Of a stretch of 64,000 nucleotides of DNA, positions 3,990 to 62,972 are shown piece by piece; position 1 is the first letter of the stretch, and every line of letters begins with the position of its first letter. The notes beneath the pieces were generated by a model, which made no database searches, had not been told where the DNA came from, and was given only the letters and a program-made list of their open reading frames with translations. Source of the DNA: Squalus acanthias (taxonomy: Eukaryota). The stretch covers positions 92,010,001-92,074,000 of the forward strand of contig CM059432.1 of NCBI GenBank assembly GCA_030390025.1, in the 5' to 3' direction. A program made the translations under genes and the position numbers.

Positions 3990-3997
3990 GTGTAGCT

Positions 3998-14749: not shown

Positions 14750-17202
14750 ATATTGATTGGACAAATCAAATTGGCCATGGTAGCCTTGAGGAGGAGTTCA
14801 TAGAGTGCATCCGGGATGGTTTCCTAGAACAGTATGTAATGGAACCAACCAGGGAGCAGGCTATCTTGGATCTGGTACTATGTAATGAGACAGAATTAAT
14901 AAATGATCTCGTAGTAAAGGATCCTCTAGAAAAGAGTGATCATAGCATGGTTGAATTTCAAATTCAGTTGGAGAGTGAGAAAGTTGTATCTCAAACCAGT
15001 GTCCTGATCTTAAACAAAGGCAATTACAGTGGCATGAGGGCAGAACTGGCTAAAGTGGACTGGAAAAATAAATTAAAGGGTAAGACAGTTGAAATGCAGT
15101 GGCGGACATTTAAGGAGATATTTCATAACTCTCAACAAAAATATATTCCAGTGAGAAAGAAAGATTTTAAGAGAAGGGAGCACCATCCGTGGCTAACTAA
15201 GGAAGTAAAGGATGGTATCAAATTGAAAACTTAGGCATACAATGTTGCCAAGATTGGGAGACCAGAGGATTGGGAAATTTTAAAAAACCAGCAAAGGATG
15301 ACTAAAAAAATAATGAGAGAGAAAATGAATTATGAGAGTAAACTGGCAAGAAACATTAAAACAGATAGTATATAAAAAGGAAGAGGGTAGCTAAAGTAAA
15401 CATTGGTCCCTTAGAAGATGAGACTGGGGAATTAATAATGGGGAACGGGGAAATGGCTGAGATTCTGAACAAATATTTTGTATCTGACTTCACTGTAGAA
15501 GACACTAACAACATCCCAATAATGGATAATCAAGGGGCCACAGGGAGGGGGGAACTAAAGACAATCACTATCACTAAGGAAATAGTACTTGGTAAAATAA
15601 TGGGACTAAAAGATGACAAGTCCCCTGGACCAGATGGCCTGCATCCCAGGGTCTTAAAAGAAGTGGCTACAGAGATAGTGGATGCATTGGTTGCAATATA
15701 CCAAAATTCCCTGGACTCTGGAGAGGTCCCAGCGGATTGGAAAACCGCAAATGTAACACCCCTATTTAAGAAAGGAGGGAGACAGAAAGCAGGAAACTAT
15801 AGACCAGTTAGCCTAACATCTGTCATTGGGAAAATGCTGGAGTCCTTCATTAAAGAAGCAGTAGCAGGGCATTTGGAAAATCATAATGCAATCAAGCAGA
15901 GTCAGCATGGTTTTATGAAAGGGAAATCATGTTTAACAAACTTGCTGGAGTTCTTTGAGGAGGTAACGAGCAGGGTGGACAAAGGTGAACCAGTGGATGT
16001 GGTGTATTTGGATTTCCAGAAGGCATTCGATAAGGTGCCACATAAAAGGTTACTGCATAAGATAAGAGCTCACGGAATTGGGGGTAATATATTAGCATGG
16101 ATAGAGAATTGGCTAACTAACAGAAAGCAGAGAGTCGGGATATATGGGTCATTTTTCGGTTGGCACACGGTAACTAGTGGGGTGCCACAGGGATCGGTGC
16201 TGAGGCCTCAACTATTTACAATCTACATTAATGACTTGGATGAAGGGACTGAGTATAATGTAGCCAAGTTTGCGGATGATACAAAGATGGGTGGGAAAGC
16301 AAGTTGTGCAGAGGACTCAAAGAACCTGCAAAGGGATATAGACAGGCTAAGTGAGTGGGCAAACATTTGGCAGATGGAGTATAATGTGGGAAAGTGCGAG
16401 GTTATCCACTTTGGCAGGAAAAATAAAAAAGCAAATTATTATTTAAATGGAGAGAGATTACAAAATGCTGCAGTTCAGAGGGACCTGGGGGTCTTTGTGC
16501 ATGAAACACAAAAAGTTAGCATGCAGTTACAGCAAGTAATCAAAAAGGCAAATGGAATGTTGGCCTTTATTTCAAGGGGGTTGGAGTATAAAAGCAGGAA
16601 AGTCCTGCTACAACTGTACAAGGTATTGGTGAGACCACACCTTGAGTACTGCGTACAGTTTTGGTCTCCTTATTTAAGGAAGGATATACTTGCATTGGAG
16701 GCAGTTCAGAGACGATTCACTAAGTTAATTCCAGAGATGAAGGGGTTGACTTATGAGGAAAGGTTGAGCAGGCTGGGCCTATACTCATTGGAATTTAGAA
16801 GAATGAGAGGTGATCTGATTGAAACATATAAGATACTGAGGGGGCTCGACAGGGTAGATGCAGAGAGGATGTTTCCCCTCGTGGGGAAATCTAGAACACG
16901 GGGGCACAGTTTTAGAATAAAGGGTCGCCCTTTTAGAACTGAGATGAGGAGGAATTTCTTCTTTCAAAGGGTCATAAATCTGTGGAATTCTCTGCCCCAG
17001 AGAGCTGTGGAGGCTGGGTCATTAAATACATTTAAGGTGGAGATAGACAAATTTTTGCAAGATAAGGGAGTGAAGGGTTATGGGGAGCGGGTGGGGAAGT
17101 GGCTTTGAGGCCAAGATCAGCCATGATCTTGAATGGCGGAGCAGGCACGAGGGGCCAAGTGGCCTATTCCTGCTCCTATTTCTTATGTTCTTATGCTCTT
17201 AT
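14750..17202 (+). mobile_element. 5'-truncated CR1 LINE in intron 1 of the Myb gene, with an uninterrupted 556-aa RT/C-terminal ORF (15438-17108)
   Basis: All RT motifs lie in one frame; the EN part is broken by a stop at 15234; (TTCTTATG)n tail. Confidence 0.95.
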
Positions 17203-17940
17203 AGCTGGCATTGTGTGCAAGGTGTGAGATGTGGGTGTGAAGCTTGCAATAGTGATAAGTGTGTGAGGGTGAGGTGGAGCTATGATTGTGAGGTATGACT
17301 GATAGAGATTGTTGGTTAAGGAGTGATGGGAATGTGGTGCATTGAGCAGCGTGTGAGGCTAGTGGTACAGTTGGTGGGATACAGCATTTGATGATACATT
17401 CACTCACCTTGACCACTCGTGTGAGGTCATTAAACTTCTTCCTGCACTGGATCCATATCCTGGGGGAAAGATTGGTGGTACTGACCGCTTCAGCGATCTC
17501 CTCCCACTGCCTTCGAACAGTGTGTCTGGAAGGCCTCCTGCCCCCTGCGGGTAGAGGACGTGTCTCCTCCTATCGACCCCCTGCACCAAGGCCTCCAGTG
17601 CTGCATCCGAGAACTTAGGTGCCCTTTCTCTGCCCTGTTGTGACATTGCTAACTTCCAGCTCCAGTCAGAATGAGGTACTTCTCTCACAAAGCACCTCCC
17701 CTTTAAGAAGTGCAGACAGCCTTTCACTCTGCATGCAACCTTTAAATTTACGATATTGGGCCCCCTGTTGAGCGCTGACACAACCAGCAATGCGTTTAGC
17801 GCTGGGCTCAGCACTTCAATTATGTTAATGAGCAGGTAGCATGTATATCGCGTGCTGCCTGCATTACTTTCAATGGGCGTGGGCAGATCACGCATTGCGA
17901 TACCCGTGCCCGTTTTCGGGCCTTATCCAATTTAGCCCCC

Positions 17941-29785: not shown

Positions 29786-30512
29786 TATTTTATTTATTTA
29801 TTTTTTATTTGTTTATGGGATGTGGGAGTCACTGGCAAGGCCAGCATTTATTGCCCATCCCTAATTGCCCTTGAGAAGGTGGTGGTGAGCTGCCTTCTTA
29901 AACCGCTGCAGTCCGTGCGGTGAAGGTACTCTCAGTGCTTTTAGGGAGGGAGTTCCAGGATTTTGACCCAGCAACGATGAAGGATCGGCGATATACTTCC
30001 AAGTCAGGACGGTGTGTGACTTGGAGGGGAACTTGGAGGTGGTGTTCCCATGCGCCTGCTGCCCTTGCCCTTCTAGGTGGACGAGGTCGCGGGTTTGAGA
30101 GGTGCTGCTGAAGAAGCCTTGGCGAGTTGCTGCAGTGCATCTTGTAGATGGTACACACTGCAGCCACGGTACGCTGGTGGTGGAGGGAGTGAATGTTTAA
30201 GGTGGTGGATGGGGTGCCAATCAAGCGGGCTGCTTTGTCCTGGATGGTGTCGAGCTTCTTGAGCGTTGTTGGAGCTGCACTCATCCAGGCAAGTGGAGAG
30301 TATTCCATCACACTCCTGACTTGTGCCTTGTAGATGGTGGAAAGGCTTTGGGGAAGTCAGGTGAGACACTTGCCACAGAATACTTAGCCTCTGACCTGCT
30401 TATATGGGTGGTCCAGTTAAGTTAATGGTGACACCCAGGATGTTGTTGGTGGGGGATGCGGCGATGGTAATGTCGTTAAATGTCAAGGGGCGGTGGTTAG
30501 ACTCTCGCTTGT
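29786..30512 (-). mobile_element. Family-B LINE 3' fragment
   Basis: MEYSPLAWMSAAPTTLKKLDTIQDKAARLI; 3' UTR GGGCAATAAATGCTGGCC with an A-rich tail. Confidence 0.85.
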
Positions 30513-39480: not shown

Positions 39481-42400
39481 CGGAGTGCAGATTGGAACAG
39501 AGTGTTAAGCTGCGAGTTTGGTGAGTGAGGGAGTAAATCTTAAAGGTTAATCTCTTATTTTTATAAATTCTAGTCTTGTGTGCTTGCAATTAGCATTTAA
39601 ATTTACTGTTTCAAGTTTTAGGTTTCTTCCAGGCTTGGGCAGGGCTAAGCAAGCTCTATGCTGGAGAGCAGGTGAGAGTAATTAATTAATTAAGTGGTCT
39701 AATCTGGTTCTGTAACTGCCAGAGAGCTCACTTATTTAAATCTCAGCAGTACAAATAAGGGAGGCTAGAGTGCAGATTGGAACAGAGTGTTAAGCTGTGA
39801 GTTTGGTGAGTGAGTAAGTTCAGGGAGGGAGGTGTTCCTTTCTTTTTCCATCTTTGTCAGCTTCCAGGAGAGCAGGAGCTAAAAAGCTGCACAAGAGGGG
39901 AAAGAGAACCAGCGGACAGGGAATGGGTGACCACCAGACAGAGTAAAAGAACTAGGAAGGTAGTGCAGAAGTCCCCTGGGTCAATCTCCCTCTCCGACAG
40001 ATTTTCTGTTTTGGATACTGATGGGGGAGATGGTTTCTCAGGGGAATGCAGCAAGAGCCAAGTCCGTGGCACTACGAGTGGCTCAGCTGCACAGGAGGGG
40101 AGGAAAAAGAGTGGGAGAGCAATAGTGGTAGGGGATTCTATCGTAAGGGGAACAGATAGACATTTCTGTGGCCGCAGACGTGACTCCAGGATGGTATGTT
40201 GCCTCCCTGGTGCCAGGGTCAAGGATGTCACTGAACGGCTACAGGGCATTCTGAAGGGGGAGGGCAAACAGTCAGAGGTCGTGGTTCACATTGGTACCAA
40301 CGACCTGGGTAGAAAGAGGGATGAGGTCCTGCAACAAGAATTTAGGGAGCTAGGTAACAGATTAAAAAGCAGGACCTCAAAGGTTGTAATCTCTGGATTA
40401 CTCCTGGTGTCACGTGCTAGTGAGTATAGGAATAGGAGGATAGAGCAGATGAATGCATGGCTAAAGAGTTGGTGCAGGAGGGAGGGCTTTAGTTTCCTGG
40501 ATCACTGGGTCTGCTTCTGGGGAAGGTGGGACCTGTACAAGTTGGACGGGTTGCACCTGAACCGGAACGGGACCAACATCCTTGCGGGGAGGTTTGCTAG
40601 TACTGTTGGGGGGGGGGGGTTTAAACTAACTTGGCAGGGGGATGGGATACAGAGTGGAGCTATAGTAGGGGGTGATGCACAGCCAATTATAGAGGAAAAA
40701 ACAAGTCAGCCTGGAAGGCAGAGCAAATATGTAACGGCACAAGGGAATATGGCAAGGCTGGATGGCATTTATTTTAATGCAAGGAGTCTTGCGAGTAAGG
40801 CAGATGAATTGAAGGTGTTGATGAACACATGGGAGTATGATATTGTTGCTATCACAGAGACATGGTTGAGGGAGGGGCAGGACTGGCAGCTCAATATTCC
40901 GGGGTATAGAATCTTCAGGCGAGACAGAAGTGGGTGTAAAAGAGGAGGGGGTGTCGCAATATTAATCAAGGAGTCAATTACTGCTGTAAGGAGGGATGAT
41001 ATCTTAGCAGGTTCCTCTAATGAGGCCATATGGGTAGAACTTAAAAACAAAAAGGGGGCAAGCACTTTGCTGGGAGTGTACTATAGGCCCCCAAACAGTC
41101 GGGGGGAGATAGAGGAACAGATATGTAGGCAAATCTCAGAGAAGTGTAGAAATAATAGGGTAATAATAGTAGGGGATTTCAACTTCCCCAATATTAACTG
41201 GGATAGTCAGAGTGTGAAAGGCTTAGAGGGTGCGGAATTCTTAAAGTGCATCCAGGAGAGCTTTTTGAGCCAGCATGTAGAATGTCCTACAAGAGAGGGG
41301 GCGGTACTGAACCTAATTCTAGGGAATGCAGCCGGGCAAGTGGTAAAAGTGTTAGTAGGAGAGCATTTTGGTGACAGTGACCATAATTCGGTGAGATTTA
41401 AGGTAGTCATGGAAAAGGACAAAGATGGACCGGAAATGAAGGTTTTAAATTGGGGGACGGCCGATTTTAATATGATAAGGCAGGATCTGGCCAAAGTGGA
41501 CTGGGATCAGCTACTTGTAGGAAAATCCACATCAGAGCAGTGGGAATGACTTCAGAAAGGAAATAGAGAGAGGACAGCGCCAACATGTTATCGTAAAGGT
41601 CAAGGGTGGGACCAACAAGTCCAGGGAACCCTGGATGTCAAGGGATATACGAGAATGGATTAGGAAAAAAAGGGAGGCTTTTGGCAGATACAAAGGACTA
41701 AAAACAATAGAAGCCCCAGAGGAGTATAGAAAGTGCAGGGGGGTACTTAAAAAAGAAATTAGGAGAGCGAAGAGGGGACATGAAATAACACTGGCAGGCA
41801 AAATAAAGGAAAATCCCAAGGTGTTTTATAAGTATATTAAGGGCAAGAGGATAACCAGGGAAAGAGTAGGGCCCATTAGGGACCAAAGTGGCAATCTGTG
41901 TGTAGAGCCAGAAGATGTAGGTGGGGTTTTAAATGAATATTTTGCATCTGTGTTCACTATGGAGAAGGACGATGTAGGCATAGAAATCAGGCAGGGGGAT
42001 TGTGATATACTTGAACAAATTAGTATTGAGAGGGAGGAAGTACTAGCGGTTTTAGCGGGCTTAAAAGTGGATAAAGCCCAAGGCCCAGACGAGATGTATC
42101 CCAGGCTGCTGTGTGAGGCAAGGGAGGAGATTGCAGGGGCTCTGACACAAATTTTCAGAACCTCTCTGGCCACAGGGGAGGTGCCAGAGGACTGGAGAAC
42201 AGCTAACGTAGTACCATTATTCAAGAAGGGTAGTAGGGATAAACCAGGGAATTATAGGCCAGTGAGCCTAACATCAGTGGTAGGGAAATTATTGGAAAAA
42301 ATTCTGAGGGACAGAATTAGTCTCCACTTGGAGAGGCAAGGATTAATCAAGGATAGTCAGCATGGCTTTGTCAGGGAGAGATCATGTCTGACCAATTTGA

Positions 42401-43633
42401 TTGAATTTTGAGAGGGGGTGACTAGGTGTGTGGATGAGGGTAGTGCAGTTGATGTGGTCTACATGGACTTCAGTAAGGCTTTTGACAAAGTCTCGCATGG
42501 GAGACTGGTCAAGAAGGTAAGAGCCCATGGGATCCAGGGCAACTTGGCATATTGGATCCAAAATTGGCTTAGTGGCAGGAGGCAGAGGGTGATGGTCGAA
42601 GGTTGTTTTTGTGACTGGAAGCCTGTGTCCAGTGGTGTACCGCAGGGATCGGTGCTGGGTCCTTTGCTGTTTGTAGTGTACATTAATGATTTAGATATGA
42701 ATGTAGGAGGTATGATCAGTAAGTTCGCAGATGACACGAAAATTGGTGGGGTGGTAAATAGTGAGGAGGGAAGCCTCAGGCTACAGGACGATATAGACGG
42801 GTTGGTTAGATGGGCAGAACAGTGGCAAATGGAATTTAACCCTGAAAAGTGTGAGGTGATGCATTTTGGGAGGACTAACAAGGCAAGGGAATACACAATG
42901 AATGGTAGGACCCTAGGAAGGACAGAGGATCAGAGGGACCTTGGTGTGCATGTACATAGATCCCTGAAGGCAGCAGGACAGGTAGATAAGGTGGTTAAAA
43001 AGGCATATGGGATATTTGCCTTCATTAGCCGAGGCATAGAATATAAGAGCAGGGAGGTTATGATGGAGCTGTACAAAATGCTAGTTAGGCCACAGCTGGA
43101 ATACTGTGTGCAGTTCTGGTCGCCACACTATAGGAAGGATGTGATTGCATTGGAGAGGGTGCAGAGGAGATTCACCAGGATGTTACCTGGGCTGCAGCGC
43201 TTCAGCTATGAAGAGAGACTGGACAGGCTGGGGTTGTTTTCCTTAGAGCAGAGAAGGCTGAGGGGGGACCTGATTGAGGTGTACAAAATTATGAGGGGCA
43301 TAGATAGGGTAGATAGAAAGGAACTTTTCCCCTTAGTAGAGGGGTCAATAACCAGGGAGCATAGTTTCAAGGTAAGGGGCAGGAGGTTTAGAGGGGATTT
43401 GAGGAAAAACCTTTTCACCCAGAGGGTGGTTGGAATCTGGAACTCACTGCCTGAAAGGGTAGTAGAGGTAGGAACCCTCAACATTCAAGAAGCATTTAGA
43501 TGAGCACTTGAAATGCCATAGCATACAAGGCTACGGACCAAGAGCTGTAAAATGGGATTAGAATAGATAGGGCTTGATGGCCGGTGCGGACACGATGGGC
43601 CGAAGGGCCTCTTTCTGTGCTGTATAACTCTAT
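39481..43633 (+). mobile_element. Near full-length CR1 LINE: 5' UTR, SGNH-esterase ORF1, APE-RT ORF2 with frameshifts near 41549, 42411 and 43490, and 3' UTR
   Basis: GDSIVRG, CLPGARV, HIGTND and DGLHLN (ORF1); NARS, ITETW, YYRPP, GDFN and SDH (EN); complete RT motif set. Confidence 0.95.
40620..40629 (+). promoter_or_regulatory. Putative -1 ribosomal frameshift heptamer TTTAAAC followed by TAA at the CR1 ORF1/ORF2 junction
   Basis: X XXY YYZ heptamer; TTT AAA CTA ACT TGG runs into the endonuclease without a stop; same motif at 57164 and 45300. Confidence 0.55.
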
Positions 43634-45290
43634 GACATGACTTATGAAGCCATGTTGAGTAGACCTAATATGTCCCTCTCTATCCCAAGTATTCATATAT
43701 TGCATCCCTAATGATTCCTTCAAGCATCTTACCTATTACTGATGTTAAACTAATGGGCCTACAGTTACCTGTCACTTTTTTTTTAAAGATAGAGACTACA
43801 TTAGCCTCCTTCCAGTCTATAGGAACCATTCCAGAGTGTAGTGAGCTATTAAAAATACAGGCTAGGGGGCTCACACAGCACTTGACCCATCTCAGAGGAC
43901 CCTTGGGTGGACATCATCTGGCCCAGCTGCTCCATCCATTTTCAAGTTCTTAATTATTTCTAAAACAATGTTACTCTATGTTTGGTTAGTAACATTATTA
44001 AATTTCAATAGTCAAGTAGCATCTTCAAAAAGGTGAAGACCGATGCAAAGTACTCATTTAATATTTCCGCCACACCCAGCGAGTCCTGTGTAACCCGTCC
44101 TTGAACACCCTTCAATGGCCCAATACAGTCTGATAGTTCTGACTGACTCTTCACATAACTGAAAAAGCTTTCCCATTACTTCCACAGTTGTCTGCGATCC
44201 TTTTATCCATTAGCCATTTTGCTGATCCAATAGCAGCCTTTGTTTTCTTTAGTTGTTCCTTATACTCAACTCTTTAAATATCTTTAATTTAGAGAAACAT
44301 TTGTTTACATCTTATTTGTCTTTGTACATAACCAGTCAGCCACCTTGGCTTTTTCTTGCTTTTGACTTTGGGTACATATGTTTTGCCACATTTTTTTCAT
44401 CTTGTTCTTAAAAACTTTATTTATATTCTACATCGGTCTCATCATCACCCAGGAGGGTTAGCCAATTTACCCGTTCCAAATCATCTGCCATTTTGGTGAA
44501 ATTTGCTCTTCTGAAATCTGGTAAGTGGTAAGTGTTGCAGGTTCTCAGTACCTTTAGTTCTACTAGCCAATTGGAACCATATAATGTCGTGGTCACTGTT
44601 GGCCAGATGTTCCCCCACATAGAGGCCCGATACAAGGTCAGGCTCACTACTAAACACTAGATCACTATGATTATCCCGAGTTACTTCATTAACATGTTGA
44701 GTCAGGAAACAGTCTTGTATATGCACACAACAATTTTTCAAGCACTTCCCACCACAACAGCAGGTAAACCATCATGTCACTGAATGCCAGGAAAATTAAA
44801 GTCAGCCAAAAGGTGGCATTTTATATTAAAGCATTTGCAATCCATTTTCATAATAACTCTCTTGTTCAGGTGTCCGACCCAGGGGCCTATAACAATTACC
44901 AATAATTAGTCCCTGCCCATGAGGTTTGTCCACTTTAACCCAGATAGCCTCTGCTGTACTTGAGGCAATGTCAAGTCAGTCTTTAGCAGAAAGATTCTCA
45001 CTGCTAAAAATAGCAACCTCACCTCCCCTCTGACCCACTATCCTTTCTGAAACCCTTAGGTGAATTTCTGTCCCATTACTTTCATCTAGCTATGTCTCAA
45101 ATACAAAATGTCTAATTTCTCTAACACAGCATAGGATTACAGTTCTACAACTCCTTGCATTTACATTGTTTAAGAGTTTTTTTAAAACTCTTGTATGCTT
45201 CCTACCTGGTTTATCAGCATGCTTAGCATCTATATAATCATCAAGTTCAGCAAGGCGATCTTTGAACTTCTACACTATCTCCTTGCTGAA

Positions 45291-45300
45291 TTAGTTTAAA
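45291..45300 (-). promoter_or_regulatory. TTTAAAC-TAA at the end of the ORF1 remnant in the old minus-strand CR1
   Basis: Minus strand GCATTTAAACTAA lies between the ORF1 esterase remnant and the EN remnant. Confidence 0.45.
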
Positions 45301-45860
45301 TGCTTTCAGAAATCATTTAAAAAGACCCTCTGCCCGCCTTTGTGCTCCCAGGAAGTTAAGATGGAGGCCATCCCTCGTAAACAACTTACCTTGTCCAGCA
45401 AACACCTCCCAATTATTGATGAAATGTAGCTTCTTTTTACAAAGGTCCCAAAGCCAGATGTTGAATCCTACAATTCAGCTATGCCTCTCCATCGATCTGG
45501 ACATGACTGGTAATAGCCCAGAGACTACTACCCTTGTATCCCTTTGCTGAAGGTTACCTATGAGGCTTTTGTAGGAATCCTGCAAAACAAATGGATTTCT
45601 AGCAATTATATCATTAGCACCAATATGTAAACCTATTACAGTTCCTTGGCACTCACTTTTCATCAGATCATCCACACAATCAGAGATCAGCTACCTTGGT
45701 CCCTGGAAAACAAAAGACTGCTCGAGAGACTTACCTCTACACAGGGTGCTCTCTGTGTGCCTGATAATAGAATCCCCTATGAGGATAGCACACTGCCTCC
45801 TACTCTTCCTTGGCTGTTCACCCAACAATGTTCTCTTGGATTTTGCAACCTTCCTCAATG

Positions 45861-47480
45861 TTTTTTTTAAATTCGTTTATGGGATGTGGGAGTTGCTGGC
45901 AAGGCCAGCATTTATTGCCCATCCCTAATTGCCATTGACAAGGTGGTGGTGAGCCGCCTTCTTGAACCGCTGCAGTCCATGTGGTGAAGGTAATCCCACA
46001 GTGCTGTTAGGTAGGGAGTTCCAGGATTTTGACCCAGCGACAACGAAGGATCGGTGTGAGACTTGGAGGTGGTGGTGTTCCCATGCGCTTGCTGCCCATA
46101 TCCTTCTAGATGGAAGAGGTCGCAGGTTCGGGAGGTGCTGCCGAAGAAGCCTTAGCGAGTTGCTGCAGTGCATCTTGTAGATGGTACACACTGCAGCCAT
46201 GGTACACCGGTGGTGGAGGGAGTGAATGTGTAAGGTGGTGGATGGGGTGCCAATCAAGCGGGCTGCTTTGTCCTGGATTGTGTCGAACTTCTTAGTGTTG
46301 TTGGAGCTGCACTCATCCAGGCAAGTGGAGAGTATTCCATCACACTCCTTACTTGTGCCTTGTAGATGGTGGAAAGGCTTTGGGGAGGCAGGTGGTGAGA
46401 CACTCACCGCAGAATACCTAGCCTCTGACCTATTCTTGTTGCCACAGTATTTGTGCCTGGTCCAGTTAAGTTTCTGGTCAATGGTGACCCCCAGGATGTT
46501 GATGGTGGAGGATTCTGTGATGGTAATGCTGTTGAATGTCAAGGGGAGGTGGTTAGACTCTCGCTTGTTGGAGATAGTCATTGCCTGGCACTTCTGTGGC
46601 TCGAATGTTACCTGCCACTTATCAGCCCAAGCCTGAATGTCATCCAGGTCTGCCTCATTATCTGAGGAGTTGTGAATGGCGCTGAACACTGTGCAGTCAT
46701 CAGCGAACATCCCCATTTCTGACCTTATGTTGGAGAGAAGATCATTGATGAAGCAGCTGAAGATGGTTGGGCCTGGGACACTGCCCTGAGGCTCTCCTGC
46801 AGCAATGTCCTGGGGCTGTAATGATTGACCTTCAACCACCACAACCATCTTCCTTTGTGCTAGGTATGACTCCAACCAGTGGAGAGTTTCCCCCCTCCCC
46901 CCAGATTCCCATTGACTTCAGTTTTACTAGGGCTCCTTGATGCCACACTCGGTCAAATGCTGCCTTGATGTCAAGGGCAGTCACTCTCACCTCACCTCTG
47001 GAATTCAGCTCCTTTGTCCATGTTTGGACCAAGGCTGTAATGAGGTCGGGAGCAGAGTGGTCTTGGCGGAACCCAAACTGGGCATCAGTGAGCAGGTTAT
47101 TGGTGAGTATGTGCCGCTTGATAGCGCTGTTGATGACACCTTCCATCACTTTGCTGATGATTTGAGAGTAGACTGATGGGGCGGTAATTGGCTGGATTGG
47201 ATTTGTCCTGCTTTTTGTGGACAGGACATACCTGGGCAGATTTCCACATTGGTCAGATAGATACCAGTGTTGTAGCTGTACTGGAATAGCTTGGCTAGAG
47301 GCGCAGCTAGTTCTGGAGCACAAGTCTTCAGCACGATAGCTGGGATGTTGTCGGGGCCCATAGCCTTTGCTGTATCCAGTGCGCTCAGTCGTTTGATATC
47401 ACATGGAGTGAATCGAATTGACTGAAGACTGGCTTCTGTGTTGGTGGGGAACCTCAGGAGTAGACCGATATGAATCATCG
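45861..47480 (-). mobile_element. Family-B LINE (CR1/L2 group, clade uncertain), 5'-truncated
   Basis: QFGFRQDHS, LDIKAAFDRVWH, PQGSVPGP, FADD, LGVTIDQKL, WNSLP. Confidence 0.9.
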
Positions 47481-50379: not shown

Positions 50380-52245
50380 TGCATGGGCAGTGGACAGGTG
50401 CACCATGCCCAAATTGCACTGTGCCTGTCCAGGATCAGAAGGCCTGAAATTGGTGGGCTGGATCACTTGCATGGCCTGGTTTCACCTCCGGTGGAGGACC
50501 ACCCTATTGCAGGATGTTACACCTAGAAATAGAGATGAGAGTGTGTGGGGTGAGGGAGAAGTCAGAAGAGACAAAGCGATTAGATATGAATAAAACGTGT
50601 GCGACGTCTGCTCCAGCGTTACCATTCGCCAAGGCCTCCACTCAGCCCAGAGCTGCTCGAGGTCGTTCTCCAAGGCCATCTGATGTGTCCTCAATGAAAG
50701 CTCAGCATCCTTCCACATCCTAAGCTGTAGCCACTGGGGAAACACTTCATAGGAGCATGAGGATAGGAAAACAAGCACTCAAGACAGGCACTAAAGTTTA
50801 ATTTTTTTTGTCAATGTTGACATGATTTGACAATATTTGTTTGATAAATTTGATTTTTGTACTGGTTTGGTGTTGATAATTGTCTTTGTAGCAAAGTGAG
50901 GACAAAGCTCATAGGTCTAGAGTGAAGCGAGGCAATCGGATAGTGGCTGTAAGGAGAGTGGTAAGGATTGTAAGACTGTTGGTGAATGGGGAACGGGAGG
51001 TCTGATTTAGGCGAAGTGCTCCTCAATGTGCTGGTCTCTGAGAGCTTGGGCAAGTAAGGGCACTGATGATCGCTGCCTTTCCTTCTCCTCCTTCTCTTCC
51101 TCCTCCTCCTCCTCCTCTTCTCTCTCTTCCTGCACTTGTTGTTGCCCAGGTGGTGGTAACAGCTGGTCCCTCATGATGACCAAGTTATGGAGCATGCAGC
51201 AGACAACAACAAATCTGGATACCCACTCAGGGCTGTAGTGCAAGGCTCCTCTGGAACGGTCCAGGCAGTGGAAGCGTTGCTTGAGCCTGCCGATTGTTTG
51301 CTCGATAAAGCTGCTTGTGGCAGCATGGCTCTCATTGTAGGTGTGCTCTGCAGCTGTGCATGGGTTCCTGACTGGAGTCATGAGCCATGTCCTGAGGGAA
51401 TAACCCTTGACACCCAACAGCCAGCCTGTAACTTGGCGGTCTGGTTGGAATAAAGGCAGCACAGAAGAGTGGTGCAGGATGAAAGAATCATAACTGCTGC
51501 TGGGATAGTGGACACAGAATTGCATGATACCCTGTCTGTGGTCGCAAACCAGCTTTACGTTGAAGCAGTGTAATCCTGTTTGATTGATAAAGATGCCAGG
51601 CCGGTGATAGCAGCACACAATGCAATGGCACCCTGGGGAAGCCTGCCATGCGTGTGAAACCTAGTGCTCTCTCATCCTGCTTTGCTCTGTCTATAGGGAA
51701 GGATATGTAGATGTTCCTCGTGGTGTGGAGAGCCTCCGTGACCTTCCTGATACATTTGCAAACTGTGAAATGTTGCTGACGTCACCTGTTGGAGCCTGAG
51801 AGGAAAACGTGGCATAAAAGTTGAGGGCCACGGTGACCTTGATAGCCACAGGCAGTGCTGTCCATCCCCTGGTTTGTGGCTGCAGCAGCTGACATATCTC
51901 AGTGACAGGTGGAGCAAAGATGCCTCAGACATTGCTCCTGAGTAAAGTTGATGTAGGAGAAGTAAACCCTGAGTGGATATGGCCTCCTGTGCAGTGCCCT
52001 CCTCCCCCTCCTCCTCCCCTTGTGGCAGCTGCTCCTGCTCTGTGGTGTGTTCCTTGCTGTTGCCCCGCCTCCTCCAGCTGCGAAGGCAGCCCTATGAGAC
52101 CATCCATCTCTGCAGCCAGACTATTCTGAGGCAAAGAGCAATGGCACTACCAGACCAACAAAACCTCTCTCTGTGCGGCCAAAGTGAACTTTCCAGAGTG
52201 ATACAACACACCAAAAAACACCCAGAAGTCAAGGAATATATTTGA
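50380..52245 (-). mobile_element. Decayed Harbinger: transposase (-, ~52110-51007) plus the 3' end of the Myb partner gene (+, ~50380-50790)
   Basis: VCDHRQGI...GWLLGVKGY...IEQTIGRLKQRF...CCMLHNL and poly-Glu; the + strand PRAARGRSPRP matches the Myb-gene end near 13300-13420. Confidence 0.85.
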
Positions 52246-56150: not shown

Positions 56151-57163
56151 CATCCAACTTTGCCTCACTGCAATTGCAGAAGGGTCAGTTACCTAAGAAC
56201 ATAGGTGTTAACTAAGCTCCCAGTGCACCTGGTCATCACATCACATTGTGTGTCTGGACTGCAGTATGTGGGAGTTTGTGGACAGTGAGACTGTCCCGAG
56301 TGAACACGTCTGCAGTAGATGTCTCTGTCTCGAATCACTCCGGCTCAGTCATTGAGCTGAAGTGCAAATTGGAGACACTCTGACACAAAAGGGAGGGGGG
56401 GGGAGTATCTGGACAGTTTGCTTCAGACCTCGGTTATACCTCGTAGAGAGGTGCAGGATCAGAATGGAGTTGGCGTGACCAATAGTGTACAGAGTAAAGG
56501 GAATCCAGGTGAGATAGAGAACGAGGATCCACAGAAACTGATCCTTTCCAACAGGCACAATGTACTTGCTACCTGTGAGGATAAGGATAAAGACTGTCGG
56601 AAGGACAGTCAGAATGCTGATGATGGTACCTTGGAGCAGGAGGCTGTCCAAAAGGGGGAGATGGGGAAGTGTAATATGGTAGTTGTAGGGTATTCAATAA
56701 TTAGGGGGACAGATAGCATCCTTTGTAAGCAGGATCGAGAGTCCATCAAGGTATGTTGGCTACCTGGTGCCAGGGTGAGGGACATCTCGAATGGGCTTGA
56801 AAAGATATTGGAGAGGGAGGGGGAGGATCCAGTCATTGTGGTCCATGTTGGGACCAACAACATAGGAAAGAGTAGGCAAGAAGTACTGTTTGGAGAGTAC
56901 CAGGAGCTAGGAGCTAAATGGAAGGAAAGGACCTCAAGGATTATAATTTCTGGATTGTTACCCGAGCCATGTGCAAATTGGTGTAGGGATAAGAAGATTA
57001 GGGAGGTGAAAGCATGGCTGAAGGATTGGTGTGAGAAAGAGGGGCTCCATTTGATGGAATGGTACTGGGACAGGAAGGAACAGTACCGTTGGGTCTGGCT
57101 CCACCTGAACCAGACTGGGACCAGGGTCTTAGCAGAAAGGAAAAATAGGGCGGTCACGAGGAC

Positions 57164-57173
57164 TTTAAACTAG
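57164..57173 (+). promoter_or_regulatory. T TTA AAC heptamer in the ORF1 reading frame directly before the TAG stop
   Basis: ACT TTA AAC TAG ends ORF 56418-57173; G-rich sequence follows. Confidence 0.55.
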
Positions 57174-57305
57174 TAAAGGGGGGAGGGCTCAGATGGAAAA
57201 GGTAGTATAAATAATAGTTCTAAAACAAGCGAAGGGAAGAGAGTAGAGTAATAGTCAGAAATTGTGCTTTAGGCACTACTGATAAAGGGAAAACTAAAAG
57301 ATGTA

Positions 57306-58037
57306 GGGCACAAAATTCGGTTACGCCTCGTAACTTCGGTTACGTCCCGACATTTAGGTTAGGCCGGACATTAAGCAGCAAGCGCTGAAGTACTGCCCCA
57401 GCCGTTAAATTCGGCTTACCACCCCGCACAGGAAGTGAAGCGCAATGTCGGGCGCTCCACTTCCTGGTGGGGCGGTAACTGAGGGGATGTCGGGGGGAGC
57501 ACTGCCGCGTTTCAATGCCCCGCCCCTTCAGTTAAAGGGGAGGGCCGCTGCGCACTCTGCAGGGCCTCTGATGGGCCACCAGGGCGGCGTGGTGCCATGG
57601 CAGCAGTGGCCGAGACGCGGTGCAGGACTGCACGATGGAGGCCAGGACCACACCAAGGCACACCATGGAGGGCTGCACCTCCCCTTTAACTATGCCCCGC
57701 AAGCGGAGATCGGCCCGGCTCGTGACCCGCGAGGCTGACACTGATACCGCCTGCAGCAGCCACGCAGGGTGCAGCCGAATTTCTGCCGCGGGGCGGTAAG
57801 GGGCTGTGGTGGGGCGTTAAGGGGTTGCCGTGCATGGCGATGACATCATCACCGGAGGCGCTGTGGCCCGGGGCGCTACTGGCGGGGGCGCGCCGCTATC
57901 GGGTAGCGCCTCAGCAGCGCCCCACCGAATTTCTCGGGAGGCGCTTTTTTGGCTCCCCGGGCGATAAGCCCTTTGCACCCTGTTGGCACCCCCTGGAGAC
58001 GCTAAAGGCAGGCACAAAGGAGCCAAATTTCACCCCC
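57306..58037. mobile_element. GC-rich Harbinger-type MITE (732 bp) with a GTA TSD
   Basis: GTA|GGGCACAAAATTCGG ... CCAAATTTCACCCCC|GTA. Confidence 0.8.
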
Positions 58038-58356
58038 GTAAAGTTATTAAATAAGGAAAGAAAAATAAGAAATCTGTGAGAAAAATATTAGAGCAGAAGG
58101 AAAGGTTAGGGTGTGTGCCCAAAATAAGCGTTCTTTTTACAAACGCACGGAGTACAAGGAACAAATTGAATGAACTGCAGGCACAAATTCAACTTGGAGG
58201 GTATGACATGGTAGTTATTACTGAGACATGTCTGCAAGATGGTCAGGACTGGGGACTAAATATAGGAATATAAACTGGTTCTGTATCACATTAAATTCAG
58301 GTTATAAGGTCTACAGAAAAGATAGGGAAAATGGCAGAGGGAGAGGAGTAGTCTAT

Positions 58357-59232
58357 GGTCGGAATTTTGCCGGCGCTCAGGGGGCGGGTTTGGAGGTGGG
58401 ACATCTGGCAAAATCGCAAAGATTGACAGTGGGCAGGAAACCCGCTGTCAACCCACCTCCAATCAATCTTCCCAAGTGTCGGGTCCCCAATTTGCGCATG
58501 GACCCGACACCTAGCGGCGGGAAGAGAATTATAGCCACTTAACTGCCTGTTAATGGTGATTAACAGGCAGTTAACAGGCTCTTTTTCAATTTTTACGCTC
58601 CTACTTCGGGCTTCCCAACGTCCGAACACCACGCCAGGTAAGTGTGGCGTGTTGTGAATCTGCTGTAATGTTTCTGCATTGATGACAGCTGCAGAAGTGG
58701 TGTGAAGGATCCAATGGTGCACTGGTGAGTTTCAGAGGTAAGAAAATGTTGGGAAATTAATTTTTAATGCATTTAGACTTTTCTGTAGGTAACAAGTTTT
58801 GAATTGTTTGTGTAGTCCCACCTCATTGGGAGAACCGCCCTCAGCAGTGACAGATCGCTTCTGTAACCTCACCTGCAGCTGCCATCTGTTCTAGCCTAAG
58901 GAGGGAGTCACTGGAGAGCCTGGGTGCAAGAACTCATCTGTGAACAGTCATTGTCAGTGTTTGCAGCACCTCAATGCTGTCAAACACTGAGGTATGAGCT
59001 GTCAAAGAAAAATTGTGCATGGTCCCTTTAAGAAAACTGGCAAATGACGCGTCATCAAATTACATCAACTGACCGGCTTTGTCTTAATTGGCCGGCAAGC
59101 CCACAGGGCGGGCTTAACAAGACCAATTGACGTAAAATCACGTCTGTGGGCCGGATGTAGTTGGGGGCGGGACTGGAACCCGGAAGCCACCTGACCCGCT
59201 CCCAAGCCGCATCGATCGAGGAAATCGTGGCC
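58357..59232. mobile_element. Harbinger MITE, a shorter relative of 27914-29623
   Basis: Colinear blocks with both arms of 27914-29623; interrupts the CR1 EN at GRGV|LV. Confidence 0.8.
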
Positions 59233-60751
59233 TTAGTGACAAGGAATGAAATCACTTCAATGATAAGAAAGGATATAATGAGAGGTAACCAGGCAGTGAA
59301 GACTTTATGGGTAGAATTAAGAAATAGAAAAGGAGTTAAGACTGTAGTGGGAGTTGTGTATATGCCCTCTGGTAGCAGCTGTGAAGTGGTAGAATGTATA
59401 AATGCAGAGATTAAACAAGCATGTAGTAAAGGCAGAGTGGTTTTAATGGGGGATTTTAACTTTCATTTAGACTGGGATAAGCAGACTAGCTCATGTCAGA
59501 AAGGTAGTGAATTTCTCGAGTGTGTTCAGGATATTTTTCTGCAACAATATGTCCTGGAACCAACAAGGGGGCAGGCGATATTAGATTTAGTAATGAGTAA
59601 TGAGCCAGATTTAGTTAACAGCCTAACAGTGCATGAACATTTATCTAATAGTGATCATAATATGATCAAGTTCAATGTAGTGTTTGAAAGGGAGAAACAC
59701 AAAGCAGCTACTAAGATTCTAGATTTAGGTAAGGCTTACTACAATGCGATGAGACAGAGACTGTCCACAGTAAACTGGGTAAATCTGCTAAAGGGTAAAA
59801 CAACAGAAGATCAGTGGGAGGTGTTCAAAAAAATAATTGAAGGTGATATAGAACCAGTTTATACCCCTAAGGGGCAAGAGCTCTGCTTGCCAAAAAAAAC
59901 CAGCCATGGATGACTAAAGAGGTAAGGGACAACATAAAACTAGAAGAAAAAGCATACAAACATGCAAAAACTAGCGCAGATCCTGACAACTGGGAAAGAT
60001 ACAAAGAACAACAAAAGGTGACAAAACAGATAGTAAGAGCTACAAAAAGGAAGTATGAAAAGTAACTTGCGAGGCATATCAAAATCAACGCAAAATGTTT
60101 TTACAAATATATTAGGAAAAAGAGGGTGGTCAGGAACAATGTGGGCCGCTTGAAAACTGATAACAGTGATATTGTAAATGAAAATAAGGAAATGGCGGAC
60201 CTGTTGAATAATTACTTTGCGTCAGTATTTATAGCAGAGAAAGAAGATAGCATGCCGGATCTCCCAAGGAAACTGATATTAAATCAGGGATGGGTACTCA
60301 CCAAAATTAACGTAAGTAAAATAACAGTAATGAAGAAAATAATGGCAATAAAGAGTGACAAATCCCCAGGACCAGATGGTTTCCATCCCAGGGTTTTGAA
60401 GGAAGTAGGTGAGAACATTGCAGATGCCCTAACTATAAATTTCCAAAGTTCTCTCAATTTGGGAACTGTTCCGTTAGATTGGAACATTGTACATGTCACT
60501 CCGCTATTTAAGAAAGTTGAGAGAGGTAAACCAGAGAATTATAGACCAGTTAGCCGAACATCTGTTGTTGGGAAATTCCCTAGAGTCTATAAGTAAGGAT
60601 AGAGTGACTGAACACCATGAAAATTTTCAGCTGATCAGAGAGAGCCAGCATGGATTTGTAAAGGGTAAGTCATGCCTGACGAACCTGATTGAATTTTTTG
60701 AATAGATGACTAAAGTAGTGGAGAGGGGAATGTCTATGGATGTTATTTATA

Positions 60752-62972
60752 CACACTGAGGACACCCTCCATCGTGTTGTGTGGCACTACCACCGTGCTA
60801 AATGGGATAGATTCAGAACAGATCTAGCAGCTCAAAACTGGGCATACATGAGGCGCTGTGGGCCATCAGCCGCAGCAGAATTGTATTCCACCACAATCCG
60901 TAACCTCATGGCCCGGCATATCCCTCACTCTACCATTACCACCAAGCCAGGGGACCAACCCTGGTTCAATAAGGAGTGTAGAAGAGCATGACAGCAGCAG
61001 CACCAGGCATATGTAAAAACGAGGTGCCAACCTGGGGAAGCTGCAACACAGGACTACATGCATGCTAAAAAGCGGAAGCAGCATGCTATAGACAGGGCTA
61101 AGTGATCCCACAATCAACGGATCAGATCAAAGCTCTGCAGTCCTGCCACATCCAGTCGTGAATGGTGGTGGACCATTAAACAACTAACGGGAGGAGGAGG
61201 CTCCATGAATGTTCCCATCCTCAATGATGGTGGAGCCCAGCACGTGAGTGCAAAAGACAAAGCTGAAGCGCTTGCAACCATCTTCAGCCAGAAGTGCCGA
61301 GTGGATGATCCATATCGGCCTCCTCATGAGGTTCCCACCATCACAAAAGTCAGTCTTCAGCCAATTCGATTCACTCAACGTGATATAAAGAAATGGCTGA
61401 GCTCACTGGATACAGCAAAGGCTGTGGGCCCGACAACATCCCAGCTGTCATGCTGAAGACTTGTGCTCCAGAACTAGCCGCGCCTCTAGCTAAGCTGTTC
61501 CAGTATAGCTACAACACTGGCATCTATCCGACAATGTGGAAAACTGCCCAGGTATATCCTGTCGACAAAATGCAGGACAAATCCAATCCGGCCAATTACC
61601 GCCCCATCAGTCTACTCTCAATCATCAGCAAAGTGATGGAAGGTATCATCGACAGTGCTATCAAGCGGCTCTTACTCACCAATAACCTGCTCACTGATAC
61701 CCAGTTTGGGTTCCGCCAGGACCACTTGGCTCCAGACCTCATTACAGCCTTGGTCCAAACATGGACAAAGGAGCTGAATTCCAGAGGTGAGGTGAGAGTG
61801 ACTGCCCTTGACATCAATGCAGCATTTGACCGAGTGTGGCATGAAGGAGCCCTAGTAAAACTGAAGTCAATGGGAATCGGGGGGAAAACTCTCCACTGGC
61901 TGAAGTCATACCTAGCACAAAGGAAGATGGTTGTGGTGGTTGGAGGTCAATCATGACAGCCCAAGGACAAAACTGCATGAATTCCTCAGGGCAGTGTTCT
62001 AGTCCCAACCATCTTCAGCTGCTTCATCAATGACCTTCCCTCCAACATAAGGTCAGAAATGGGGCTGTTCGCTGATGACTGCACAGTGTTCAGTGCCATT
62101 CGCAACTCCTCAGATAATGAAGCAGTCCATGCCCGCATGCAACAATACCTGGACAACATTTAGGCTTGGGCTGATAAGTGGCAGGTAACATTCGTGCCAC
62201 AGAAGTGCCAGGCAATGACTATCTCCAACAAGCGAGAGTCTAACCATTGTTCCTTGACATTCAACGGCATTACCATCGCCAAATCCCCCACTATCAACAT
62301 CCTGGGGGTCACCATTGACCAGAAACTTAACTGGACCAGCCACATAAATACTGTGGCAACAAGAGCAGGTCAAAGGCTAGGTATTCTGCGGCGAGTGTCT
62401 CACCTCCTGACTTCCCCAAAGCCTTTCCACCATCTACAAGGCACAAGTCAGGAGTGTGATGGAATACTCTCCACTTGCCTGGATGAGTGCAGCTCCAACA
62501 ACACTCAAGAAGCTTGACACCATGCAGGACAAAGCAGCTCGCTTGATTGGCACTCCATCCACCATCTTAAACATTCACTCCCTCCACCACCGGCGTACCG
62601 TGGCTGCAGTGTGTACCATCTACAAGATGCACAGCAGCAACTTGCCAAGGCTTCTTCGGCAGCACCTCCCAAACCCGCAACCTCTACCACCTAGAAGGAC
62701 AAGGGCAGCAGGCACATAGGAACACCACCACTTCCAAGTTCCCCTCCAAGTCACACACCATCCTGACTTGGAAGTATATCGCCGTTCCTTCATCGTTGCT
62801 GGGTCAAAATCCTGGGACCCCCCCCCATCCCTAACTGCACTGTGGGAGTATCTTCACCACACAGACTGCAGCAGTTGAAGAAGGCGACTCACCACCAGCT
62901 TCTCAAGGGCAATTAGGGATGGGCAATAAATGGTGACCTTGCCAGCGATGCCCACATCCCATGAATGAATAA
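60752..62972 (+). mobile_element. Family-B LINE, 5'-truncated, inserted in the CR1 RT
   Basis: QPWFN, NYRPISLLS, LDINAAFDRVWH, FADD and MEYSPLAW; 3' UTR ending (ATGA)n; host DVIY|FQKA rejoins. Confidence 0.92.

What the first reader, a model, noticed from the sequence alone, without database searches (positions are those of the whole stretch)
40608..40660. Coronavirus-type UUUAAAC slippery heptamer at the ORF1 stop of three CR1 LINE copies: a possible -1 frameshift route to ORF2
Seen: TTTAAAC is immediately followed by a stop (TAA/TAG) at the end of ORF1 sequence in three divergent CR1 copies (40620-40629 +, 57164-57173 +, 45300-45291 -). At 57164 it is phased T TTA AAC in the ORF1 frame. At 40620 the -1-slipped reading TTT AAA CTA ACT TGG runs without a stop into the APE endonuclease. 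G-rich sequence follows in the two + copies. Known: U UUA AAC is the X XXY YYZ slippery site of coronaviruses, whereas mammalian L1 expresses ORF2 by reinitiation. Inference: CR1 may make a gag-pol-like ORF1-ORF2 fusion by programmed frameshifting. ORF1/ORF2 overlap in CR1 has been reported; I cannot confirm whether this mechanism has been tested.
Basis: partly seen in the sequence, partly recalled or inferred. Interest (0 to 1): 0.72.

Follow-up and report, generated by a model that had tools for sequence, protein, structure and literature searches.

The report
Frameshift signal in CR1 jumping genes
A very common jumping gene of vertebrates (CR1) keeps a seven-letter "slippery" site right at the stop of its first gene, which suggests that its copying enzyme is made when the ribosome slips back one base, as in retroviruses, rather than by starting afresh as in the human L1 element; this has not yet been tested in the laboratory.

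Summary
The three TTTAAAC-stop sites are real and mark the ends of all three esterase-type CR1 ORF1 copies in the window. Only the copy at 57164 has the site in ORF1 phase; at 40620 four extra G's have fused ORF1 and endonuclease into one frame.

All 11 vertebrate junctions held as DNA read T TTA AAC (chance about 0.01 per lineage). Seventeen published CR1-group consensus junctions, from sharks to crocodiles, do too, and 12 synonymous patterns gave no junction hit. Distant ORF1s end Q-G-N (fits G GGA AAC), and one intact element has in-phase T TTT TTA with no AUG in 189 ORF2 codons. In 7 of 10 junctions that reach the endonuclease, ORF2 lies in the -1 frame, open from the heptamer; three are decayed.

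No conserved stem or pseudoknot was found; a G-tract about 10 nt downstream is the candidate stimulator. Best reading: -1 programmed frameshifting that makes an ORF1-ORF2 fusion (0.78), untested; rival: reinitiation at the stop. Eight paper searches aimed at it found no report for CR1; older closed papers were not seen. The scan earlier noted a similar junction in a LINE on other DNA.

The parts
39894..40607 (+). Copy A: ORF1 remnant of an esterase-type CR1 LINE (N-terminal 73 residues with the zinc finger missing; SGNH esterase at about 40128-40571)
   Evidence: tblastn of P0003 residues 74-311, 69% identity; Pfam Lipase_GDSL_2 E 3.9e-14; profile match to ZfL2-1 ORF1p esterase 4c1b E 1.3e-44
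40608..40619 (+). Copy A: run of 12 G, 4 nt longer than the family form; puts ORF1 and endonuclease of this copy in one frame
   Evidence: only indel listed in contigs of two organisms is 4 letters left out at 40608; 8-nt form in published consensus rows
40620..40626 (+). Copy A: slippery heptamer T TTA AAC (X XXY YYZ)
40627..40629 (+). Copy A: TAA, the family's ORF1 stop (out of ORF1 frame in this copy)
40637..40647 (+). Copy A: G5-AT-GGG-A tract starting 10 nt after the heptamer; candidate linear stimulator (inferred)
40620..40772 (+). Copy A: stop-free linker in the -1 frame from the heptamer to the endonuclease; its only ATG is at 40749-40751 (44th codon)
   Evidence: ATG reads AGG in 55 contigs, 37% of depth, of run X6
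40773..41384 (+). Copy A: APE endonuclease domain of ORF2
   Evidence: Pfam Exo_endo_phos E 7.2e-13
41521..43503 (+). Copy A: rest of ORF2 with reverse transcriptase, broken by a frameshift near 41549 and a stop at 42409-42411; element ends near 43635
   Evidence: RVT_1 E 1.5e-6 and 3.8e-22
56361..57173 (+). Copy B: ORF1 frame ending ...T-L-N-stop; zinc-finger piece at 56242-56346 in another frame
57164..57173 (+). Copy B: T TTA AAC TAG in ORF1 phase
57178..57186 (+). Copy B: G6 tract 7 nt after the heptamer
58109..59913 (+). Copy B: APE pieces (58109-58264, 59179-59913) separated from ORF1 and from each other by GC-rich insertions
45343..45831 (-). Copy C: old, decayed esterase ORF1 remnant (33% identity to copy A)
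45291..45300 (-). Copy C: TTTAAAC TAA at the ORF1 end, one base out of phase in this decayed copy
44568..45032 (-). Copy C: broken APE remnant

Best explanation
Esterase-ORF1 CR1 LINEs make ORF2 protein by -1 programmed ribosomal frameshifting. Shown: ORF1 ends on an in-phase X XXY YYZ heptamer (U UUA AAC in jawed vertebrates; U UUU UUA in one distant element; G GGA AAC inferred from protein in another clade) directly before its stop; ORF2 (APE, RT) lies in the -1 frame, which is open from the heptamer, is often closed by a stop 1-5 codons upstream, and often has no AUG nearby. Inferred: most ribosomes stop at UAA/UAG and release ORF1p; a minority, paused with the stop codon next, slip tRNA-Leu and tRNA-Asn back one base and continue, giving an esterase-linker-APE-RT fusion (junction ...x-L-N-L...) at a low fixed ratio, like gag-pol. 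More weakly inferred: the stimulator is not a classical pseudoknot but the adjacent stop plus a single-stranded G-tract about 10 nt downstream, acting through a bound protein or a weak G-quadruplex. The window's own copies are dead; the fused frame of copy A is a copy-specific G-run expansion (or an assembly error in the run), not the mechanism.
For: (1) 11 of 11 vertebrate junctions held as DNA read T TTA AAC (3 window, 8 bird-type loci found by a protein-motif scan blind to the heptamer). Background in the same ORF1s: TTA 12 of 131 Leu, AAC 15 of 34 Asn, T at 157 of 645 four-fold third positions, product 0.0098; with four lineages at 30-43% identity, about 1e-6 after conditioning on one. In an 8-way alignment TTTAAACTA is the only long invariant block. 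(2) In the consensus table of PMC13343379 (first 400 nt of each row searchable) 17 of 20 TTTAAACTAR hits are ORF1 ends by my reading (alligator, crocodile, bullfrog, bowfin, coelacanth, chimaera, sharks, rays, one deep-sea fish row labelled Crack); 12 synonymous-variant patterns gave 21 hits, none at an ORF1 end. (3) 89 of 120 listed ORF1 homologues end in L-N. Among 93 of 150 representatives with a scorable C-terminus, 64 end in a slippery-compatible dipeptide against 5% background (52 LN, 10 GN, 1 KN, 1 LK), at 24-39 residues from the last esterase motif; the residue before LN cannot end in T in 1 of 52, before GN in 9 of 10 (Q), and none of the 10 excludes G. (4) -1 frame has 0 stops over 43-94 codons in 7 junctions while the other two frames have 3-19; shuffled linkers stay open with P 0.007-0.30 each. 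(5) L016: intact 376-codon ORF1 ending T TTT TTA GCG TAG, ORF2 in the -1 frame with no Met in 189 codons. (6) First in-frame AUG is the 44th codon in copy A and is lost in part of the family, 23rd in L006, and some 85 codons away in two stork gene models. (7) U_UUA_AAC and G_GGA_AAC are named among the most shift-prone heptamers for mammalian ribosomes (PMC5009743, passage). (8) The solved ZfL2-1 esterase ends at profile position 315, before the terminal x-L-N.
Against: No experiment. No conserved downstream structure: z-scores of the 60 nt downstream are -1.0 to +1.5 in 10 of 11 junctions (only decayed copy C -2.8) and the consensus fold has no pair downstream; without a stimulator the efficiency may be about background. 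An in-frame AUG sits at the 5th codon in 4 of 7 bird-type loci long enough to tell, and a UAAUG stop-start overlap in 3 of 17 consensus junctions, which fits reinitiation. 29 of 93 representatives do not end in a slippery-compatible dipeptide, and 3 proteins of the first search have E before LN, which breaks the first base. The ten GN ends lie in one 18-row clade, so the Q-GN link is few events and has no DNA. The G-tract is absent in L016, copy C and 2 of 17 consensus junctions. No ORF1-ORF2 fusion protein other than gene-model artefacts or shifted copies was found (weak searches). The contig data did not test the heptamer well: no variant among 40 rows shown, 82 rows hidden.
Confidence: 0.78

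Rival explanations
1. Termination-reinitiation: ribosomes stop at the ORF1 stop and restart ORF2 nearby in the -1 frame, at an AUG where one exists and at any codon where not (as described for SART1 and L1). The heptamer would be a conserved pause or termination context, or a relic of an older frameshift.
For: AUG 2 nt after the stop in L001, L002, L004, L008; UAAUG overlap in 3 of 17 consensus junctions; explains the open linker and short overlap; L1 tolerates any sense codon in place of the ORF2 AUG (PMC1965478 passage); SART1 and L1 couple ORF2 to ORF1 translation (PMC2881922 passage).
Against: Does not explain why the conserved word is exactly X XXY YYZ in ORF1 phase and is replaced by other members of that pattern; the AUG is absent in L006, L009, L016, the three window copies and 14 of 17 consensus junctions, while the heptamer never varies.
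Confidence: 0.13
2. The word is kept for another reason: a C-terminal L-N motif needed by ORF1p plus a DNA or RNA signal (protein-binding site, splice or processing signal, internal promoter) that happens to match; ORF2 starts at a downstream AUG or an internal entry site.
For: L-N is almost invariant at the protein end; the same 10-mer occurs in the 5' UTR of two dogfish consensus rows; internal entry sites have been proposed for LINE ORF2 (PMC3894237).
Against: L-N or G-N ends occur 24-39 residues from the fold and lie beyond the solved esterase; synonymous sites are frozen; UAA-ending junctions have no AG acceptor and the flank is purine-rich; the linker upstream of the first AUG is kept free of stops; L016 has no AUG at all.
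Confidence: 0.07
3. Chance or shared recent ancestry: the three copies agree only because they descend from one element.
For: All copies are homologous; the bird-type loci are closely related and count as one lineage.
Against: ORF1s are 30-43% identical in protein and neighbouring codons are scrambled while nine bases are invariant.
Confidence: 0.02

Closest known systems
CR1-clade LINEs with SGNH-esterase ORF1 (canonical vertebrate CR1; PMC13343379)
   Same: Zinc finger, coiled coil and esterase ORF1, then APE and RT; copy A's junction matches rows labelled LINE/CR1 in that paper's consensus table almost letter for letter.
   Different: The element is ordinary; the frameshift signal is not mentioned: 0 occurrences of frameshift, overlap, slippery, start codon or translat- in the main text, 0 of frameshift in PMC4120745, PMC4316615 and PMC3905857.
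-1 programmed frameshifting of coronaviruses (U_UUA_AAC), HIV-1-type (U_UUU_UUA) and gag-pol retroelements
   Same: In-phase X XXY YYZ heptamer, downstream gene in the -1 frame, structural protein first and polymerase second.
   Different: No stable stem or pseudoknot 5-9 nt downstream; the 0-frame stop follows the heptamer directly; host is a non-LTR element.
Protein-stimulated frameshifting of arteriviruses (PRRSV nsp1beta with poly(C)-binding protein on a C-rich motif 11 nt downstream; PMC5009743 passage)
   Same: A linear homopolymer-rich motif at a similar distance (G-tract 9-10 nt after the heptamer in 7 of 8 junctions that have it, 7 nt in one).
   Different: G-rich, not C-rich; no binding protein identified; resemblance only.
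Dictyostelium TRE5-A and TRE3-A
   Same: APE-type non-LTR elements said to need a -1 frameshift for ORF2 (figure legend of review PMC5911963).
   Different: Another clade and host, no esterase ORF1; the passage gives no heptamer or assay, and I did not see the primary papers.
SART1 (UAAUG stop-start) and mammalian L1 (unconventional reinitiation)
   Same: Bicistronic LINE RNA with ORF2 dependent on ORF1 translation; UAAUG occurs in 3 of 17 CR1 consensus junctions.
   Different: They give two separate proteins; here the invariant feature is the heptamer and the AUG is sporadic.

Membership tests
CR1-clade LINE (esterase type) | ORF1 with SGNH esterase | tested here: met
   Pfam Lipase_GDSL_2; 4c1b match
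CR1-clade LINE (esterase type) | ORF2 with APE endonuclease followed by reverse transcriptase | tested here: met
   Pfam Exo_endo_phos, RVT_1 in two pieces
CR1-clade LINE (esterase type) | Placement in the CR1 clade by RT phylogeny | not tested
CR1-clade LINE (esterase type) | 3' end without poly(A), with short tandem repeat | tested here: inconclusive
   Copy A ends near 43635 without poly(A), with a short inverted repeat and one ACTCTATG-like unit seen by eye; the expected tail is recalled
Canonical -1 programmed frameshift element | X XXY YYZ heptamer in phase with the upstream ORF | tested here: met
   Copy B, 8 bird-type loci, L016; out of phase in copies A and C through indels
Canonical -1 programmed frameshift element | Downstream ORF in the -1 frame, open from the heptamer | tested here: met
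   7 of 10 junctions that reach the endonuclease; 3 decayed
Canonical -1 programmed frameshift element | Conservation beyond amino-acid need | tested here: met
Canonical -1 programmed frameshift element | Stimulatory stem-loop or pseudoknot 5-9 nt downstream | tested here: not met
   No conserved stable fold; pseudoknots and long-range pairing were not modelled, so only the simple local form is excluded
Canonical -1 programmed frameshift element | Measured frameshifting and a transframe product | not testable with these tools
   Needs reporter, ribosome profiling or mass spectrometry
Protein-stimulated frameshift (arterivirus or cardiovirus type) | Conserved linear motif 10-14 nt downstream | tested here: inconclusive
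   G-tract at 7-10 nt in 8 DNA junctions and clear in 12 of 17 consensus junctions by my reading; absent in L016 and copy C; also encodes G-x-G in the -1 frame
Protein-stimulated frameshift (arterivirus or cardiovirus type) | Trans-acting protein bound to the motif | not testable with these tools
   none
SART1-type stop-start coupling | Conserved AUG overlapping or next to the ORF1 stop | tested here: not met
   Present in 4 of 7 bird-type loci and 3 of 17 consensus junctions, absent in the three window copies and L016

The most novel reading that the evidence does not exclude
Esterase-type CR1, the dominant LINE of most vertebrates, has made its reverse transcriptase as an ORF1p-ORF2p fusion by -1 frameshifting since before jawed vertebrates split, with interchangeable slippery heptamers across animal lineages, and the shift is driven without an RNA structure, by the adjacent stop and a G-tract 10 nt downstream that binds a host G-run protein or ORF1p itself (a feedback switch) or folds a natural G-quadruplex stimulator, of which the review read here knew no natural case.
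Probability: 0.3. Interest if true: 0.92.

Novelty: new variant of a known kind. Interest (0 to 1): 0.8.

Why it matters
How LINEs translate ORF2 is an open question (PMC3894237), and CR1-group elements are the dominant retrotransposons in most vertebrate species (abstract of PMC13343379). If true, the reverse transcriptase of these elements is a fusion carrying the lipid-binding esterase and coiled coil, its amount is set by a slip rate as in retroviruses, and the usual annotation of CR1 ORF2 from the first AUG is wrong. The signal is ten bases long and testable in a week with a reporter. It would also add a large natural set of chromosomal frameshift sites, with a stimulator that does not look like a pseudoknot.

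Tried and rejected
No genome is held for the window, so copies could not be counted genome-wide. Prokaryote, viral, phage and plasmid collections gave no usable junction: L031 is a decayed fragment, L030 and L032 are unrelated SGNH proteins. Of 30 loci, 15 were read (9 hold the ORF1 end; L003, L005, L007, L011 stop before it; L012 has lost it by deletion; L030 is bacterial); the other 15 end within about 50 nt of a match that stops short of the ORF1 end and were not read. No DNA was found for the Q-G-N families, and their hosts are unnamed. Searches for long fused proteins gave 13 hits, mostly chimeric gene models, and none. Raw-read runs X21 and X22 barely covered the stretch (6 and 0 reads). 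Rejected: copy A as a naturally fused single-ORF family (relatives lack the 4 extra G); a splice acceptor at the stop (TAA junctions have no AG, no pyrimidine tract); an upstream start of ORF2 (a -1 stop lies 1-5 codons before the heptamer with no ATG in 8 of 12 junctions); a conserved downstream hairpin (a bird-only hairpin starts 27 nt away). The SART1 paper PMC1190309 is not held.
Full report
OBSERVATION. TTTAAAC followed by TAA or TAG occurs three times in the 64-kb window, at 40620 (+), 57164 (+) and 45300 (-); shuffles give 0.56 on average and 1 of 100 reached three. The heptamer alone is not enriched (13 against 11.1), and 30 heptamers of the general X XXY YYZ form are followed by a stop somewhere in the window, so the case rests on position. 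tblastn finds three ORF1 homologues in the window and each ends at one of these sites; they are 43% and 33% identical to copy A in protein. Pfam gives an SGNH esterase for copies A and B and an APE endonuclease behind A, and reverse transcriptase further on. The nearest named proteins come from sharks and rays.

WHAT THE THREE COPIES SHOW. Only copy B has the site in ORF1 phase (T TTA AAC TAG), and its -1 frame closes after 13 codons before a large insertion. In copy A, ORF1 and endonuclease lie in one stop-free frame of 579 codons. The cause is the run of 12 G at 40608-40619. Relatives have 26 residues from the D-G-L-H-L motif to the end, which needs 8 nt here. Contigs of two organisms laid on the stretch show one indel only, four letters left out at 40608 (34 and 33 contigs; 7% and 2% of depth as explicit gaps, with loose ends at 40612 and G-to-A calls at 40612 and 40616 that fit the same shorter form aligned without a gap). 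Two published consensus rows have the 8-nt form. Whether the four G's are a mutation or an assembly error cannot be told. Copy C is old, with a premature stop and a one-base offset before the heptamer.

CONSERVATION IN DNA. A scan of metagenome contigs with protein motifs from the middle of the esterase, blind to the heptamer, returned 30 loci. Nine hold the end of ORF1. Eight are bird-type (by likeness to swallow and stork proteins); all eight read T TTA AAC, seven with TAG and one decayed copy with AAG. With the window's three this is 11 of 11. In the same ORF1s TTA is 12 of 131 Leu codons, AAC 15 of 34 Asn codons, and T ends 157 of 645 four-fold codons; the product is 0.0098. Counting copies A, B, C and the bird group as four lineages and conditioning on one gives about 1e-6; this assumes that synonymous sites are saturated between them. 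In an alignment of eight junctions, TTTAAACTA is the only long invariant block among about 120 columns. The consensus table of a 2026 survey (PMC13343379, supplement; only the first 400 letters of each row are searchable, so this is a small part of the library) gave 20 hits for TTTAAACTAR; by my reading 17 are ORF1 ends, in alligator, crocodile, bullfrog, bowfin, coelacanth, chimaera, catshark, dogfish, stingray, sawfish and one fish row labelled Crack, and 3 are not. That search was conditional on the motif, so I searched 12 synonymous-variant patterns: 21 hits, none at an ORF1 end. Not every synonymous form was covered.

CONSERVATION IN PROTEIN, AND OTHER HEPTAMERS. Of 152 homologues found, 120 were listed and 89 of these end in L-N, with twelve different residues before it, 86 of 89 compatible with a codon ending in T; three have E. 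A profile search of 50%-identity representatives listed 150; 93 had the last esterase motif and a tail of 20-45 residues. Of these 64 end in a dipeptide that an X XXY YYZ site can encode (52 LN, 10 GN, 1 KN, 1 LK), against 5% of internal dipeptides; the tail length varies from 24 to 39 residues. The residue before LN is one that cannot end in T in 1 of 52 cases (internal control 23 of 114); before GN it is Q in 9 of 10 and S in 1, all able to end in G. That is the pattern expected if T TTA AAC and G GGA AAC replace each other. The Fisher P of 5e-9 overstates it: on a tree of the esterase core the GN ends all lie in one supported 18-row clade, mixed with KN, FLN, FFR and GFC ends, while LN ends occur on both sides of the root. 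No DNA for these families was obtained. A clade of six with fish L2-like esterases and several others end without such a dipeptide; 29 of 93 in all. The solved ZfL2-1 esterase matches the profile up to position 315 of 319, so the fold does not need the terminal L-N.

ORF2 PHASE AND START. In copy A, L001, L002, L004, L006, L008 and L016 the -1 frame has no stop from the heptamer to the first endonuclease motif (43-94 codons) while the other frames have 3-19; copies B, C and L022 are decayed. Shuffled linkers stay open with probability 0.007-0.30 each. In 8 of 12 junctions a -1 stop lies 1-5 codons before the heptamer with no ATG between, so the frame cannot be entered from upstream. The first in-frame AUG is the 5th codon in L001, L002, L004 and L008, the 23rd in L006 and the 44th in copy A, where it reads AGG in 55 contigs (37% of depth) of run X6 and 1 contig of X1. 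Two stork gene models read F-K-L-D and run some 85 codons before a Met, and a stingray and a turtle-like protein from shifted copies also read F-K-L; gene models favour open frames, so these are weaker. L016, a distant low-GC element, has an unbroken ORF1 of about 376 codons that ends T TTT TTA GCG TAG, and an ORF2 frame 1134-1700 in the -1 phase with no Met in 189 codons, through half the endonuclease. It is one copy on a long branch.

STIMULATOR. The 60 nt downstream fold no better than shuffles in 10 of 11 junctions (z -1.0 to +1.5; decayed copy C -2.8), and at 100 nt only L002 is below -2. The consensus fold has four pairs, all upstream. What is kept is a tract of 5-6 G, then two bases and 3-4 G, starting 9-10 nt after the heptamer in seven junctions and 7 nt in copy B; G4Hunter-type scores are 1.4-2.4 and a two-layer quadruplex is predicted in 3 of 11. 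I read it clearly in 12 of 17 consensus junctions, partly in 3, not in 2. It is absent in L016 and copy C. It also encodes G-x-G in the -1 frame, always with GGG codons in six of six vertebrate junctions listed. The review PMC5009743 (passages) gives 5-9 nt as the usual spacer to a structure, 11 nt for the protein-bound C-rich motif of PRRSV, says that quadruplexes stimulate shifting in synthetic constructs with no natural case then known, and lists U_UUA_AAC and G_GGA_AAC among the most shift-prone heptamers.

MECHANISM. Shown: heptamer, phase, open -1 linker, sporadic AUG, frozen synonymous sites. Inferred: tandem slippage of tRNA-Leu and tRNA-Asn while the stop codon waits, giving a small share of esterase-linker-APE-RT fusion (0.78). 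The main rival is reinitiation at the stop (0.13): L1 tolerates loss of its ORF2 AUG (PMC1965478 passage), SART1 uses UAAUG (PMC3894237), and that pentamer occurs in 3 of 17 consensus junctions. Some families may use both. Reinitiation does not explain the X XXY YYZ form or its exchange for other heptamers.

WHAT IS KNOWN. Ten paper searches were answered; eight aimed at CR1 or non-LTR frameshifting directly, and searches returned nothing. Term searches within papers: PMC13343379, PMC4120745, PMC4316615 and PMC3905857 have no mention of frameshift (one section of the last read); PMC1925062 and PMC11835228 use the word for decayed copies and for retroviruses (only the first 300,000 characters of the latter are held); PMC5009743 names only HeT-A, TART and L1 among non-LTR elements and never CR1 in the held part; PMC2881922 names SART1 and L1 coupling; PMC3894237 (parts 1-2 of 3 read) calls ORF2 initiation an open question and does not list frameshifting in those parts. 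A review states that Dictyostelium TRE5-A and TRE3-A need a -1 frameshift (PMC5911963 passage); PMC5006619 mentions it only for DIRS-1. The 1997 and 2001 primary CR1 papers (cited) and the SART1 paper were not seen and may mention overlap or frameshifting. A look-up by sequence found nothing.

VERDICT. The elements are ordinary dead CR1 copies; the junction signal is real, deeply conserved beyond coding need, and most simply read as a -1 programmed frameshift site. New variant of a known kind; interest 0.8.

Noticed in passing
window 39483-39529 and 39768-39814: A 47-nt segment occurs twice (one difference) upstream of copy A, probably repeated 5' UTR units; the ORF1 start with its zinc finger is missing between there and 39894.
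   Followed up: partly
window about 57315-58040 and about 58356-59210: Two GC-rich insertions split the linker and the endonuclease of copy B; a further short insert lies near 58255-58300. Not identified.
   Followed up: no
window 12588-14272 (-), 3381-3995 (-), 10512-10970 (+), 51007-51660 (-), 17183-17569 (-): Several ORFs look like Harbinger/PIF-type transposase (HARBI-like) and Myb/SANT partner pieces; label recalled, not tested.
   Followed up: no
window 45925-47398 (-), 61384-61956 (-), 29898-30356 (-): A second LINE type with a different RT sequence, one copy inserted just upstream of copy C.
   Followed up: no
window 4800-4860 (+) and 36992-36930 (-): Two copies of an AT-rich repeat end that begins TTTAAAC; unrelated to ORF1 ends.
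   Followed up: no
proteins P0193, P0230, P0181, P0198, P0192, P0213, P0239, P0240: Distant esterase ORF1s without a terminal slippery dipeptide; some have K-N or F-F/F-L a few residues before the stop, so their shift site may lie upstream of it, or they use another route.
   Followed up: no
L016 55-1700: Apparently intact, distant CR1-like element with a U UUU UUA site one codon before the ORF1 stop, no G-tract and no AUG in the visible ORF2; a good second test case.
   Followed up: yes
protein P0005: A shark-type CR1 ORF1 is filed in NCBI as an SGNH hydrolase of Pseudomonas aeruginosa, most likely host contamination of that assembly.
   Followed up: no
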